A DNA stretch of 63,290 nt, counting the filler, from Caldilineae bacterium (GTDB lineage Bacteria > Chloroflexota > Anaerolineae > DTLA01): assembly GCA_037446815.1 (NCBI GenBank). It is 6 parts of 6 records of this genome, joined end to end, with 100 filler letters (N's around TTAATTAATTAA, not from the genome) between each part and the next. Parts side by side here need not be neighbours in the genome. Positions count along the whole stretch, not along the records: positions 1 to 10,593 come from JBBIHX010000096.1; 5 more parts are not named here. One strand, 5' to 3'. Positions 3,001 through 6,000 of the stretch are shown here, in pieces. Position 1 is the first letter of the stretch. The number at the start of each line of letters is the position of its first letter. A program made the position numbers.

Positions 3001-6000
3001 GATTCGGTTCCAGAGTCTGTTGGTGCCTGTCATTGCGAGGGCGCGGAGCGCCCGAAGCAATCTCCGGGGCGTGCGATTGCTTCGCTTCGCTCGCAATGAC
3101 ACACGAGGAGAGTACGCCTACGGTTCACCAACACAAGATGAAACCGAATCCAGGCGATGGACGCTTTGACATGCCCGCGGCGACAGACTATAATGCGCCG
3201 TGCTGTGTTTTGGTTTGCGGAAGGTGTAGGCAATGCGATTCAACGTGGCGCAACTGCTCCTGGGCCCCACCGGCGGGACGCGGGAGTATGATTTGGATGA
3301 CGATATCAGCGGCTTGGATCCGCTCATTGTGCCGCAGAGCACGCTGGTGGGCCATGTGCGCTTCACCCACGTGGGGCCCAACGTGCTGGTGGAGGGCAGC
3401 GCGCACGCGGACTTGGAACTCATCTGCACGCGATGCGCGGAGCCTTTTGTGGAGCGGGTGTCCATTGAACTCATGGAGGAGTTTGAGCCTAGCATAGACG
3501 TGCTGACCGGGCGGGTGCTGCCGAACGTTCACGAGGACCCGGCCCTTGTCATTGACAAGCACAACATGCTGGATCTCAGCGAGGTGGTGCGGCAGAACCT
3601 GCTCCTGGCGATGGATGACCATCCCCATTGCCGGGAGGACTGCGCGGGAATCTGCCCGCACTGCGGTCGCAACCTGAACACCGAGACCTGCACCTGTACG
3701 GACGAGCCGGTGGACCCGCGATGGGCTCCGCTGGCCGACTTGCAGGCGAGTTGACATCATTGGAAGGAGTGTTTTGACATGGGTGCTCTACCGAAGCGAA
3801 AACTGTCCAAGGGACGGCGAGATCGCCGCAGGTCGCATCTGGCCTTGAAGACCACGTCGCTGGTCGCGTGCCCCCAGTGCAAGAGCCTGCGCCCGCCGCA
3901 CCGAGTGTGTCCGAACTGCGGGTACTATCGCGGCGAGGAACGAATTTCGGTTAAGGACAAGGAATAGGCGGCGCGTCTGGTCGCCTGGGGTGTTGGTGCT
4001 GTGGCCGTGGTGCGGGATGCCGCTGCACGGCCTTTCTTTTGGGGTTTGCGCCGCGGTCCTGCTTGACGTTAGGCGCGCAATGGGGTAATCTAGGGGACAC
4101 GAGGCTCTTTGGATAAAGGGGGTGTCTATGGAACACGAGACTGCGGGCAAGGTTACCCTGGCTCCCAGCGTCCTGACCACCATCGTAACCCTCACGGTCA
4201 ACGCGGACGAGGGCGTGGCGCACCTGTGCAAGGACTGGCGCAGCGATGTCAGCCGCTTTCTCGGCGTTGGCAGCGCGGAGGACGGGGTCCGGGTAGACGT
4301 GGAGGGTAACAGCGTGGCCATAGATGTCCACCTGGTCGCGAAAGCCAACGTGAACCTGCTGGCGCTGGGGCGCCGGCTGCAATCGGAGATCGCGCGCGCC
4401 ATCAGCGACATGGTGGGCATGGTGGTCCGCGAGGTGAACATCTTCATAGAAGACGTGGAGATTCCCGATTCCGAGGAGCAGGTGTAGGCTGTGAAAGTAC
4501 GGCGGCGTGCTCGCATTGTTGCTTTGCAGGCCCTCTTTGAAACCGATAGCGTGGGCCATCCTCCGGACGCCGTGCTTCAGCACCGCCTGGAAGAGACCCC
4601 GCTTCCCGATGCGGGCGTGGATTTCGCGCGCGCGTTGGTCTTTGGCGTGCTTGAGCACCGCAAGCAACTGGATGCATTCATCCAGAAGAACGCGCCCCAG
4701 TGGCCCGTTGAGCAGATGGCGACCATAGACCGCAACATCTTGCGCATCGCCTTGTTTGAACTCTACGTGGATCGCACGACGCCCATGAAGGTCGTCATCA
4801 ACGAGGCTGTGGAATTGGCCAAGATGTTCGGCAGTGAAAGTTCCCACCGATTTGTGAACGGCGTCCTGGGCAGTTTTGTGGCCCAAATGCAGGCGATGCC
4901 GAAGCCATCCCAGGCGCAGCAAGTGGCCTCCCCCCAAGGTTCGGCGGGAGAGGAGGAGGCATGACCTTATTCGGAATCGGTCCCGGCGAACTGATCCTCA
5001 TCTTCGTGCTGGCCCTGATTATCTTCGGCCCGCAGCGTCTGCCGGAGGTGGCGCGAACCATCGGGAAGGCGGTCAACGATTTCCGGAAGACGTCGGAAGA
5101 AGTTACCACGGCGGTTGCGCGGGAATTGAACGTGAGCGAAGCCGCGGAGCCGGACAGCACAGCCACGCCACCCATCCGACCCACGCATAGCATTCCGCTG
5201 TCCAAGGTGGGCGAGGTGGTGGCGCACGAAGCCGCACCCGACGCGGCAACCCCGGCGGGTCCTGCGATGCCTGCCGCGCCCGCGGAGCCTGCCGAGAATC
5301 CCGGTGAGCCTGACGAAGGGAGTCGCGTCCAGCATGACTGAGAACAACCGGATGCCATTGCTGGCGCACCTGGGCGAGTTGCGCGATCGCCTCATCAAGT
5401 CCTTTGTCGCGCTCCTTGTGGGCACATTGGTCAGCCTGTTTGTGTTCACGCCGCGGCTGTTTGAAATCGTTATCCGCCCGATGCAACCCAACGTGCCCGT
5501 CGCCTTGCGGCCCACCGAGACCATCATCGTGTACTTCAAGTTGGCGCTCATCGTGGGTGTCGTGCTGGCGATGCCGGTCATCGTGTACCAACTGGTGCGC
5601 TTTGTCGTCCCGGGTCTCACGCCGCAGGAGAAGCGATACCTGTACTACCTTTTGCCCGCCGCGACCCTGTCGTTTGCGGTGGGCGTCCTGTTCGCGGCCC
5701 TGGTCATGCTCCCCTTCGCCATCGCGTATCTCAAAGGGTTCATGAGCGACATTGTGCGGCCAACGTACTCCATAGATTCTTACATCTCCTTTGTAACGGG
5801 GCTGCTGTTCTGGGTGGGCGTTACGTTTGAGACGCCGCTCATCATCTTCTTCCTGGCCAAGTTGGGTGTTGTAACTCCCGCCTTCTTGGCGAAGAACCGC
5901 AAGTACGCGGTGCTGTTGATTGCGGTGCTGGCGGCGGTCATCACGCCGACGCCCGACCCGTTCAACATGATGATCGTCATGCTCCCGCTGATGCTGCTGT

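What a model noticed while it worked through the whole genome (the two positions that open the first line are those of the whole stretch)
3001..3196. The MITE lands in a fixed register 7 bp upstream of promoter -35 hexamers
Insertions of the 150-bp MITE are not random within spacers: reading outward from either element end, the 8-bp target duplication is followed by exactly 7 bp and then TTG, most often a full sigma-70-type promoter (TTGACA-17 bp-TATAAT) that fires away from the element into the next gene. The duplicated target thus sits at about -50 to -43 of the promoter (the UP-element zone). The element's own ends carry TTCCAA at the same distance (7 nt) from the tip, and new copies often land 8 bp from an old copy, so the (unknown) transposase seems to pick targets that mimic its own end. 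Example: C96:3001-3150 element, CAGGCGAT duplication, GGACGCT, TTGACA-N17-TATAAT, then yceD-rpmF.
Evidence so far: 216 full-length copies with 70-bp flanks, 432 ends: TTGACA with at most one mismatch starts at offset 15 from the end in 57 ends (29 right, 28 left; exact TTGACA 37) against 0-5 at each of the other 59 offsets (one neighbour offset 8). TT at offset 15 in 174 of 432 ends and TTG in 104, against 9-76 and 2-27 at ten other offsets and 4.5% / 1.5% at random intergenic positions; 145 of 216 copies have TT there on at least one side. In the 57 sites a TANNNT box peaks 17 bp after the hexamer (29 at offset 38, 14 at 39), 42 of 57 are within one mismatch of TATAAT, surrounding sequence is unique to each site; in 55 of 57 the next gene reads outward, median 49 bp from the predicted start site. 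44 of [...]
(Added by a program. Inside this text positions count along the whole contig: they may not be those of the stretch shown here. "Call 12" and the like, gene names such as g00115 and contig names such as C1 are that model's own, and its searches are not shown. The text may have been shortened before it was handed on; [...] marks where a part breaks off. The agent that wrote the report below was given it as the finding of a first reader that could run no searches.)

Follow-up and report, generated by a model that had tools for sequence, protein, structure and literature searches.

The report
Transposon family that homes to promoters
A small mobile DNA element that has spread to hundreds of copies in this bacterium lands at one exact distance upstream of ordinary gene promoters, which looks like a bacterial counterpart of the promoter-seeking transposons known from yeast and plants.

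Summary
At window 3001-3150 a 150-bp MITE sits between 8-bp duplications (CAGGCGAT), 7 bp, then TTGACA-N17-TATAAT and yceD-rpmF. Genome-wide, TTGACA (at most 1 mismatch) starts at offset 15 from the tip in 53 of 408 ends, against a mean of 1.4 at other offsets. Across all subfamilies sharing the terminal repeat, 177 of 530 ends have a near-consensus -10 box at offsets 37-40. 41 of 184 strong predicted promoters are occupied.

The landmark is the whole promoter, not a TTG motif or a mimic of the element's end. -35-like hexamers without a -10 box in the same spacers are used 1 of 225 times, against 13 of 82 with one. Promoters lacking a -35 are hit in the same register. Only one side of a copy carries the signal.

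An empty site exists in a public run. The rule recurs in two other genomes. A 1522-bp autonomous element with the same ends encodes a divergent IS256/Mutator-type transposase. Its copies in other genomes sit 10 bp closer to promoters. Guidance by promoter-bound RNA polymerase is inferred, not shown.

The parts
2552..2939 (+). tmRNA gene upstream of the insertion
   Evidence: ARAGORN. Its terminator-like tail ends before the left duplication.
2993..3000 (.). Left copy of the 8-bp target duplication CAGGCGAT
   Evidence: A contig of run X1 joins 2992 to 3151 and skips 158 bp (150 + 8), leaving one copy only.
3001..3150 (.). 150-bp MITE. Terminal inverted repeats are at about 3001-3023 and 3128-3150; an internal palindromic module lies at about 3028-3101.
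   Evidence: The consensus end is GANTCGGTTYCANNNNNTGTTGG. The internal module is widespread in the class.
3151..3158 (.). Right copy of the 8-bp target duplication CAGGCGAT (about -50 to -43 of the promoter)
3159..3165 (+). 7-bp spacer GGACGCT between duplication and -35 hexamer
   Evidence: Offsets 8-14 carry no sequence preference genome-wide.
3166..3171 (+). -35 hexamer TTGACA (offset 15 from the element tip)
   Evidence: Invariant in 4 of 4 genomes of the genus (alignment A1).
3189..3194 (+). -10 hexamer TATAAT, 17 bp after the -35 (offset 38)
   Evidence: Invariant in 4 of 4 genomes of the genus. The start site near 3201 is predicted only.
3233..3754 (+). yceD gene, first gene served by the promoter
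   Evidence: Pfam PF02620, 97.4 bits.
3779..3967 (+). rpmF (ribosomal protein L32)
   Evidence: Pfam PF01783, 81.2 bits.
28..76 (+). Second example in the window: an element tip at 27, then 15 bp, TTGACT, then a -10-like box
   Evidence: listing.
31993..32040 (+). Third example in the window: an element tip at 31992, then 15 bp, then TTGACA
   Evidence: listing.

Best explanation
WHAT IT IS. The 150-bp element belongs to a large set of non-autonomous elements that share one 23-bp terminal repeat and make 8-bp target duplications (662 tips in 3.19 Mb). They are mobilised in trans by a divergent IS256/Mutator-superfamily transposase. An autonomous 1522-bp copy with the same ends exists in another genome.

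WHAT IT DOES. Integration is aimed at housekeeping (sigma-70-type) promoters. The staggered cuts fall so that the element tip lies 15 bp upstream of the -35 hexamer. The duplicated 8 bp therefore cover about -50 to -43, on the upstream side only, and the promoter and its gene stay intact.

WHAT GUIDES IT. The landmark is the promoter as a functional unit: -35 and -10 at 16-18 bp, or an extended -10 alone. The register is anchored at the -35 position. The most likely reader of that unit is RNA polymerase holoenzyme sitting on the promoter. The transposition complex would be either tethered to it or drawn to the DNA it bends just upstream. Relatives use a second register one helical turn closer (-35 at offset 5), which fits attack from one face of the helix.

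SHOWN: the register, the need for a -10 box, one-sidedness, the empty site, pre-existing conserved promoter, recurrence in other genomes, and the transposase family.

INFERRED: that RNA polymerase is the landmark, that this transposase type moves the G000 copies, and that the predicted promoters are active.
For: REGISTER
- 53 of 408 ends at offset 15, against a mean of 1.43 elsewhere.
- Over all subfamilies, 98 of 530 ends have a promoter-like pair at offset 15, 22 at 16, 7 at 14, 9 at 17, and 0-4 at each other offset. TATAAT (at most 1 mismatch) lies at offsets 37-40 in 177 of 530 ends.

OCCUPANCY
- Intergenic exact TTGACA plus TANNNT: 41 of 184 occupied. Exact TTGACA without a -10: 6 of 120.
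- One-mismatch hexamer with a -10: 23 of 237. Without: 5 of 1683.

SAME-SPACER CONTROL, upstream of the gene's promoter (Fisher tests)
- TTG-bearing hexamers without a -10: 1 of 225.
- With a -10: 13 of 82 (P 2e-7).
- Best promoter per gene: 54 of 378 (P 7e-11).

ENDS WITHOUT TT AT OFFSET 15. 29 of 194 still have TATAAT (at most 1 mismatch) at offsets 37-40, against about 0.3 per other offset. About 11 of them have no -35-like hexamer and are often TGnTATAAT (hand count).

ANCHOR. With the -35 at offset 15, spacers of 16/17/18 bp occur 7/37/13 times. At offset 16 they occur 1/10/1 times. The register therefore follows the -35, not the -10.

ONE-SIDEDNESS
- In tandem spacers, ends facing the downstream gene are TT-type in 40 of 76. 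Ends facing the upstream gene's 3' end are TT-type in 9 of 65 (P 1e-6).
- Both ends are TT in 3 of 124 copies, against 12.6 expected if the ends were independent (my arithmetic).

YOUNG COPIES. Copies with a perfect duplication are at least as promoter-bound as old ones: 51 of 81, against 29 of 61 with 3 or more mismatches.

EMPTY SITE AND PRE-EXISTING PROMOTER. A contig of run X1 skips exactly 158 bp. The promoter is invariant in 4 of 4 genomes of the genus, and G001 has no element there.

OTHER GENOMES
- G075: TT at offset 15 in 15 of 35 ends; -10 at offsets 38-39 in 14 of 35.
- G048: 8 of 30 and 7 of 30.

TRANSPOSASE. L107:1801-3322 has the duplication CGCACTTG and a 427-aa ORF. PF00872 scores 25.1 bits against a cut-off of 21 and matches 9 of 9 homologues.

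SECOND REGISTER. Among 39 unique ends of transposase-bearing copies, the -35 lies at offset 5 in 7 and offset 4 in 2, and 0-1 at each other offset. Three of the 5 perfect duplications in G301 end in TTG.
Against: - No transcript data. RNA contigs laid on the window cover only the tmRNA, so promoter activity is predicted from sequence and conservation.
- No evidence of any contact between the transposase and RNA polymerase.
- In the second register one cut falls inside the -35 hexamer, where bound sigma region 4 might be expected to hinder access.
- The transposase was not found in G000, G001, G003, G048 or G075 (draft genomes, so absence is not shown). The link between this enzyme and the G000 copies rests on shared ends and duplication length.
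- About half of the ends, and about a third of the copies, show no promoter. Selection must contribute to the absence of copies inside genes (0 occupied of 13,496 coding hexamers).
- The terminal repeat carries TT at the same distance as the -35 TT, and nothing in this reading explains it.
- The gene calls are home-made.
- The genomes compared are kin, not independent samples.
Confidence: 0.6

Rival explanations
1. End mimicry. The transposase's own DNA-binding domain reads a short motif (N7-TT, as in its terminal repeat) next to the target. Promoters are enriched only because TTG(ACA) in GC-rich intergenic DNA is mostly -35 hexamers and because harmful insertions are purged.
For: - The terminal repeat has TT at positions 8-9 from the tip, the same distance as the -35 TT from the duplication.
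- T at offsets 15 and 16 carries the most information in the flank.
- 41 of 408 ends abut another tip at exactly 8 bp.
- The register is anchored at the -35, not the -10.
- Insertion next to sequences resembling the element's ends is known for IS30 and IS911 (recalled, not looked up here).
Against: - TTG-bearing -35-like hexamers without a -10 box, in the same spacers and upstream of the promoter, are occupied 1 of 225 times, against 13 of 82 with a -10.
- There is no signal at offsets 8-14 once neighbours are removed.
- Promoters defined by a -10 box alone are hit in register.
- Abutting copies fit repeated hits on one promoter.
- Relatives with the same ends use offset 5.
Confidence: 0.12
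2. Promoter DNA is recognised without RNA polymerase. The reader would be the transposase, an accessory protein, or a DNA-shape or melting property of an AT-rich promoter island in a 65% GC genome.
For: - Both boxes matter.
- In the second register a cut falls within the -35, which seems easier on free DNA.
- The transposase has an N-terminal zinc ribbon and other uncharacterised regions.
Against: - One protein would have to read two hexamers 17 bp apart with the spacer tolerance and the extended -10 alternative that are typical of sigma-70 holoenzyme.
- The duplicated 8 bp and offsets 8-14 show no composition bias, so a simple AT-rich or shape preference at the cut sites is not seen.
Confidence: 0.2
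3. Selection only. Insertion is random, and copies survive or are favoured only at -51, for example because the element end supplies an activator site or insulates the promoter.
For: - No copies lie inside genes.
- Only about a quarter to a third of ends sit at a promoter.
- The element has a strong internal palindrome that could act as a terminator or insulator (not tested).
Against: - Single-base register in three genomes.
- The same 8-bp target is used twice in chains.
- The youngest copies are at least as promoter-bound: 51 of 81 against 29 of 61.
- A filled/empty polymorphism exists among near-identical sequences.
- The frequency of other positions upstream of promoters does not decay gradually around offset 15.
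Confidence: 0.03

Closest known systems
IS256 family / Mutator superfamily insertion sequences (e.g. ISCth4, whose transpososome structures are PDB 6xg8)
   Same: - Single DDE transposase of about 400 aa matching Pfam Transposase_mut.
- 8-bp target duplications and terminal repeats of about 25 bp beginning GA/GG.
- Element length of about 1.5 kb.
- ISCth4 copies are flanked by 8-bp duplications, and the family moves by copy-out/paste-in (PMC7780238, passages read).
   Different: - Very divergent: NCBIfam IS256 scores 31.7 bits against a cut-off of 150, and the PDB profile hit to 6xg8 has only E 0.56.
- ISCth4 targets are described only as A/T-rich 8-mers (PMC7780238, figure legend passage). 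Here the 8-mer is unbiased and the position is fixed relative to a promoter.
Promoter- or polymerase-guided integration in eukaryotes: Ty3 and Ty1 at Pol III genes, Tf1 at Pol II promoters, Dictyostelium TRE elements (all recalled, not looked up); maize Mutator at gene 5' ends
   Same: - Insertion just upstream of transcription units, sparing coding sequence (a 'safe haven').
- For Ty3, a near-fixed distance set by the transcription machinery (recalled).
- Maize Mu, of the same transposase superfamily, puts 85% of new insertions into hotspots near gene 5' ends (bioRxiv 10.64898/2026.05.18.725947, abstract read).
   Different: - Bacterial host and a sigma-70-type promoter.
- A DNA transposon with single-base register to the -35 hexamer.
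- The Mu hotspots, as the abstract describes them, are regional and linked to genomic or chromatin determinants.
Bacterial elements with sequence- or structure-specific targets: IS1397/ISKpn1 in REP palindromes, IS30/IS911 next to end-like sequences, class C group II introns after terminators, Tn7 at attTn7 (all recalled)
   Same: Target choice that avoids genes and uses a recurrent intergenic landmark.
   Different: The landmark here is a functional promoter (two boxes with variable spacer), not a repeated sequence or a hairpin. The end-mimicry test failed.

Membership tests
MITE (non-autonomous inverted-repeat element) | Terminal inverted repeats and small size without a gene | tested here: met
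   150 bp. The ends GATTCGGTTCC... and ...GGAACCGAATC are complementary. Most of the 230 near-full copies are 143-152 bp long.
MITE (non-autonomous inverted-repeat element) | Target-site duplication and a matching empty site | tested here: met
   The 8-bp duplication is exact in 81 of 204 copies. A contig of run X1 skips exactly 158 bp, with 9 letters fitting both sides of the joint.
MITE (non-autonomous inverted-repeat element) | An autonomous partner with the same ends | tested here: met
   L107:1801-3322 is 1522 bp, has the same 23-bp ends and an 8-bp duplication, and carries a 427-aa transposase. It has 5 complete copies in G301. It was not found in G000 itself.
IS256 family (for the autonomous partner) | Mutator-type DDE transposase domain | tested here: met
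   PF00872 scores 25.1 bits against a cut-off of 21 for P0001, and 9 of 9 aligned homologues match (best E 1.3e-9).
IS256 family (for the autonomous partner) | Score above NCBIfam's IS256 equivalog cut-off | tested here: not met
   NF033543 scores 31.7 bits against 150, and ISH6 scores 31.4 against 240. It is filed as a divergent relative within the superfamily, not as a member of IS256 proper.
IS256 family (for the autonomous partner) | 8-9 bp target duplication | tested here: met
   5 of 5 complete G301 copies have perfect 8-bp duplications. The family's typical duplication length is recalled and is stated for ISCth4 in PMC7780238.
IS256 family (for the autonomous partner) | Copy-out/paste-in through a circle with a junction promoter | not testable with these tools
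   No circle junctions were sought. The fold model was too poor to use (pLDDT 48.9).
Sigma-70-type promoter (for the flanking site) | -35 TTGACA-like and -10 TATAAT-like hexamers 16-18 bp apart, reading towards a gene | tested here: met
   The next gene reads outward in 44 of 48 cases, with a median of 82 nt from hexamer to start codon.
Sigma-70-type promoter (for the flanking site) | Conservation in related genomes | tested here: met
   For the window example, both hexamers and their spacing are invariant in 4 of 4 genomes of the genus.
Sigma-70-type promoter (for the flanking site) | Mapped transcription start | not testable with these tools
   The only RNA contigs found cover the tmRNA, not yceD.
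End-directed (pseudo-end) targeting as in IS30/IS911 | The target flank resembles the element's terminal repeat | tested here: not met
   There is no information at offsets 8-14 after neighbours are removed. -35-like hexamers without a -10 box are occupied 1 of 225 times.
Transcription-machinery-guided integration (Ty3-like mode of action) | Physical dependence on the polymerase or its factors | not testable with these tools
   Only indirect evidence: the need for both boxes, extended -10 promoters hit in register, one-sidedness, and two registers 10 bp apart.

The most novel reading that the evidence does not exclude
A family of IS256/Mutator-type transposons in Anaerolineae-like bacteria uses promoter-bound RNA polymerase holoenzyme as a landing beacon. 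It integrates at fixed, helically phased positions (tip 15 or 5 bp from the -35 hexamer). That would make it a bacterial transposon guided by the transcription machinery with single-base precision, and a natural marker of housekeeping promoters in uncultured organisms.
Probability: 0.45. Interest if true: 0.92.

Novelty: new variant of a known kind. Interest (0 to 1): 0.85.

Why it matters
- Target choice is how a transposon survives in a compact genome. Here 41 of 184 strong predicted promoters in one genome carry an element at the same nucleotide position, with genes and core promoters left intact.
- If RNA polymerase is the guide, this is a bacterial parallel to Ty3, Ty1 and Tf1. It could be tested with a small DNA transposon and a one-protein enzyme.
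- It would link the promoter bias of eukaryotic Mutator elements to a prokaryotic relative.
- In practice the element tips mark promoters in uncultured Chloroflexota-like genomes that have no transcript data: 136 of 530 ends have a promoter-like pair at offsets 14-17 and 177 of 530 a near-consensus -10 box at offsets 37-40.
- The enzyme could become a promoter-seeking insertion tool.
- Every insertion replaces the DNA upstream of about -51, the zone of UP elements and class I activator sites. The family may therefore have rewired regulation on a large scale.
- Five literature searches found no description of such a register.

Tried and rejected
- Parent element in G000: no terminal-repeat pairs at insertion-sequence length. 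The two pairs of 5.7 and 6.3 kb hold ordinary genes. A repeated 358-bp candidate is only a longer MITE.
- Family searches: PF00872 gave nothing in G000. The one IS256-type gene in G001 is not flanked by these ends. PF01609 and PF01610 hits in G000, G003 and G048 are not flanked by them either.
- P0001 was not found in G000, G001, G003, G048 or G075. These are drafts, so absence is not shown.
- Fold of the transposase from 9 sequences: mean pLDDT 48.9, pTM 0.28. It is too poor, so no fold search was made.
- PDB sequence searches: only a chance-level hit for the single protein, and E 0.56 to 6xg8 for the profile.
- RNA evidence: the six RNA runs hold 5-6% of the words. The one laid (X18) covers the tmRNA and a piece of the repeat only. 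There is no information on the yceD start site.
- Class-wide short pattern (AACCGANTC, gap, TTGACA): outside G000 it is near the level of its reversed control in most genomes. It served only as a pointer to G075, G048 and the short-gap genomes.
- A symmetric half-site model (AA-N22-TT) was rejected: both ends are TT in 3 of 124 copies, against 12.6 expected.
- The promoter being carried by the element was rejected: the duplication lies between them, G001 has the promoter without an element, and the empty-site contig keeps it.
- Complex prediction, the search for homologous proteins, the representative search and the metagenome scan were not used.
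Full report
THE EXAMPLE. Window 3001-3150 is a 150-bp element with complementary ends. 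It is flanked by CAGGCGAT at 2993-3000 and 3151-3158, and followed by GGACGCT, TTGACA (3166-3171), 17 bp and TATAAT (3189-3194). Upstream lies a tmRNA gene (2552-2939). Downstream lie yceD (3233-3754) and rpmF (3779-3967). The window is several contigs joined by runs of N. Its first 10,593 bases are contig C96 of a 3.19-Mb, 265-contig, 65% GC draft genome.

COPIES AND ENDS. A profile built from 112 full-length BLAST hits found 491 non-overlapping matches, 230 of them near-full length. 204 have 80-bp N-free flanks; the other 26 were dropped at contig ends or Ns. The tips are sharply defined: GANTCGGTT with 0-1 mismatch in 192 of 204 left ends and 189 of 204 right ends. The flanking 8-mers are identical in 81 of 204 copies and differ at no more than 2 places in 143 of 204.

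The 23-bp end GANTCGGTTYCANNNNNTGTTGG is shared by many subfamilies with different interiors. It gives 644-662 tips in the genome, depending on the pre-filter.

THE REGISTER. Reading outward from either tip, TTGACA with at most one mismatch starts at offset 15 in 53 of 408 ends (26 left, 27 right; 35 exact). Every other offset has 0-9. The mean over the 61 offsets other than 14-16 is 1.43, giving a Poisson P of about 9e-63. TT is at offset 15 in 167 of 408 ends and TTG in 98 of 408.

After removing 101 ends that run into another element, 307 ends remain: 113 with TT, 87 with TTG and 48 with a full -35. The only informative positions are 15-17 and 38-43. The duplicated 8 bp and offsets 8-14 are flat.

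Over all subfamilies (530 ends without a neighbour), promoter-like pairs have their -35 at offset 15 in 98 ends, at 16 in 22, at 14 in 7 and at 17 in 9. Each other offset has 0-4. TATAAT with at most one mismatch lies at offsets 37-40 in 177 of 530 ends.

THESE ARE PROMOTERS OF THE NEXT GENE. I called genes with a home-made codon-usage caller (2589 genes, 86.8% coding). The next gene reads outward in 44 of 48 full -35 ends, 35 of 42 TTG ends and 19 of 25 TT ends, but in only 96 of 192 ends without TT. The median distance from hexamer to start codon is 75-82 nt.

In tandem spacers, the end facing the downstream gene is TT-type in 40 of 76 cases. The end facing the upstream gene's 3' end is TT-type in 9 of 65 (P 1e-6). 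Copies are over-represented in divergent spacers: 71 of 174 classified copies, against 212 of 2324 spacers.

THE WHOLE PROMOTER IS THE LANDMARK, NOT A TTG MOTIF. Five results point the same way.

1. Occupancy. Of intergenic exact TTGACA hexamers followed by TANNNT at 16-18 bp, 41 of 184 have a tip exactly 15 bp upstream. Without such a box the figure is 6 of 120. For one-mismatch hexamers the figures are 23 of 237 and 5 of 1683.

2. Same-spacer control. This control limits the effect of selection. It used only DNA that lies upstream of each gene's best predicted promoter, where an insertion should be no more harmful than at -51. TTG-bearing hexamers without a -10 box were occupied 1 of 225 times. 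Those with one (mostly divergent promoters) were occupied 13 of 82 times, and the best promoters themselves 54 of 378 times. Fisher P values are 2e-7 and 7e-11.

3. Ends lacking TT at offset 15. 29 of 194 still have TATAAT (at most 1 mismatch) at offsets 37-40, against about 0.3 per other offset. By my reading of the listing, about 11 of these have no -35-like hexamer at all. They are often TGnTATAAT, the extended -10 type. The same pattern is seen in G048 and G075.

4. Anchor. With the -35 at offset 15, spacers of 16, 17 and 18 bp occur 7, 37 and 13 times. The -10 moves and the -35 stays, so the register is set at the -35 position.

5. One-sidedness. Both ends are TT in 3 of 124 copies without neighbours, against 12.6 expected from independent ends (my arithmetic). 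This argues against a symmetric half-site preference of a transposase dimer.

ABUTTING COPIES. 41 of 408 ends have another tip exactly 8 bp away. Over all tips there are 31 junctions of 8 bp, 6 of 7 bp and 6 of 9 bp.

The spacer equals the copy's own far-side 8-mer exactly in 19 of 41 ends and within 2 mismatches in 29 of 41. The far side of these copies is TT at offset 15 in 24 of 41. Of 8 chains made of complete elements, three carry the same 8-mer three times (X-B-X-A-X), and 7 have a promoter-like outer flank.

This is what a second hit on the same promoter register produces. With about a fifth of strong promoters occupied, a double-hit share near one in ten is expected (my arithmetic). 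End mimicry is therefore not needed, although the matching TT in the terminal repeat remains unexplained.

INSERTION PREFERENCE RATHER THAN SLOW SELECTION. Copies with a perfect duplication are promoter-bound on at least one side in 51 of 81 cases. Copies with 3 or more mismatches are so in 29 of 61.

In public run X1 a 2790-bp contig, with 19 differences over 1250 bases, joins 2992 directly to 3151. It skips 158 bp (150 + 8), and 9 letters fit both sides of the joint. That is the exact empty site with a single CAGGCGAT and the promoter in place. X1 may be the sample the window came from, so this shows a polymorphism, not independent occurrence. Runs X2 and X3 hold a more distant form without the element and with the promoter.

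In the genus, TTGACA-N17-TATAAT before yceD is invariant in 4 of 4 genomes. G001 has no element there. G003 and G004 have a degenerate related element ending 14 bp before the hexamer.

OTHER GENOMES. The full element is largely confined to G000, but tips with the same end occur elsewhere in the class: G001 33, G003 11, G004 4, G075 35, G048 31. I fetched all 66 flanks of G075 and G048.

- G075 has TT at offset 15 in 15 of 35 ends, TTG in 11 of 35, and 0-6 at other offsets. TATAAT (at most 1 mismatch) lies at offsets 38-39 in 14 of 35 ends and once elsewhere.
- G048 has TT in 8 of 30 ends and the -10 box in 7 of 30, with none elsewhere.

These two genomes belong to other families of the class.

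THE ENZYME. Most are from MAGs labelled Anaerolineae or Chloroflexota. From this I infer the class of G000.

One record holds two inverted ends 1522 bp apart (L107:1801-3322), flanked by CGCACTTG on both sides, with one 427-aa ORF. The protein matches Pfam Transposase_mut (25.1 bits, cut-off 21) and has an N-terminal zinc ribbon (DUF6431). It stays far below NCBIfam's IS256 and ISH6 cut-offs. All 9 aligned homologues match PF00872. The only PDB near-hit of their profile is the ISCth4 transposase 6xg8, at E 0.56.

It is therefore a divergent relative of the IS256 family. That family moves by copy-out/paste-in and makes 8-bp duplications (PMC7780238, passages read). Homologues occur in 22 of 401 sampled genomes of the class, often on contigs of insertion-sequence size. 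None was found in G000, G001, G003, G048 or G075.

A SECOND REGISTER. G301, the genome of L107, has 5 complete copies with perfect 8-bp duplications. None of its 13 ends has TT at offset 15. However, 3 of the 5 duplications end in TTG, and TAnnnT follows at offsets 27-32.

Among 39 unique ends of transposase-bearing copies from G301 and the loci, promoter-like pairs have the -35 at offset 5 in 7 ends and at offset 4 in 2. Each of the other offsets tested has 0-1. A copy in G115, the same genus as G075, shows the offset-15 form at both ends. G000 has only a trace at offsets 5-7, with 2 ends each.

The two registers differ by about 10 bp, one turn of the helix.

MECHANISM. What recognises -35 and -10 boxes 16-18 bp apart, tolerates a missing -35 when the -10 is extended, and sits asymmetrically on the DNA is RNA polymerase holoenzyme with its primary sigma factor. 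This is established knowledge of sigma-70 promoters.

I therefore infer that promoter-bound polymerase guides integration. It could do so by contact with the transposition complex or through the bend it imposes on upstream DNA. Preferred attack sites would then lie on one helical face, about 10 bp apart.

That polymerase-bound promoters show DNase-hypersensitive sites at roughly 10-bp intervals upstream of the -35 is my recollection, not something looked up here. No contact or dependence has been shown. In the offset-5 register one cut lies inside the -35 hexamer, which fits this model less well.

COMPARISON AND NOVELTY. The closest enzyme family is IS256/Mutator. The closest mode of action is polymerase-guided integration of Ty3, Ty1 and Tf1 (recalled) and the 5'-end bias of maize Mutator, where 85% of insertions fall in hotspots near gene 5' ends (abstract read).

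Five full-text searches found no report of a bacterial insertion sequence or MITE with a fixed register to the -35 hexamer, and none of MITEs in Anaerolineae. The library lacks most subscription journals, so earlier work may exist. I rate the finding as a new variant of a known kind, namely target-selective, gene-sparing transposition.

LIMITS.
- Promoters are predicted from sequence.
- The gene calls are home-made.
- The genomes are drafts and kin.
- The link between the transposase and the G000 copies rests on shared ends.
- About a third of the copies show no promoter on either side.

Noticed in passing
window 2480-2552: An element tip at 2507 lies upstream of the tmRNA gene. TTGCCT follows at offset 6 and TATAAT at offset 28, which resembles the closer register seen in other genomes. 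A tip at 10329 shows TTGTGA at offset 5 and TATAAT at offset 27.
   Followed up: partly
window 3028-3101; G004:C110:7656-8386 and G004:C120:19008-19365: The palindromic interior of the MITE (element positions 28-101) occurs without the terminal repeats in many genomes of the class. In G004 it forms head-to-tail arrays with a period of about 82 bp. It may be a separate repeat captured by the MITE.
   Followed up: no
G249, G251, G272, G236 (places listed): Several genomes show the element end followed by TTGACA after only 4-8 bp (9 matches in G249, 6 in G251). This fits the offset-5 register later seen at transposase-bearing copies. My hand tally of gap lengths also suggested a bump at 10.
   Followed up: partly
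L166 (G115:C246) tips at 46 and 1593: A transposase-bearing copy has promoter-like sequences in the offset-15 register at both ends, but its flanking 8-mers do not match. Recombination between two copies or two stacked events could explain it.
   Followed up: no
L191 and L192 (G004, G003), spacer between tmRNA and yceD: A degenerate related element occupies the orthologous promoter-proximal site, ending 14 bp before TTGACA. This means either an old shared insertion or independent hits on the same promoter.
   Followed up: partly
window 2552-2939: ARAGORN predicts the tmRNA tag peptide GNQDHRLAP, which lacks the usual hydrophobic Ala-Ala end. The reading frame may be mispredicted.
   Followed up: no
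G000:C20:28131-28622 (L079): The genome's only DDE_Tnp_1 (IS4/IS5-type) transposase gene has a 442-aa ORF and is not flanked by the MITE ends.
   Followed up: partly
window 3028-3065: Short contigs of an RNA run match this part of the repeat at high summed depth, while the flanks are uncovered. They probably come from repeat copies in many organisms.
   Followed up: no
window 10594-10693, 21254-21353, 29588-29687 and further N runs: The 63-kb window is several contigs joined by N spacers of 44 or 100 bases. Many contigs of the genome end inside copies of this repeat.
   Followed up: yes
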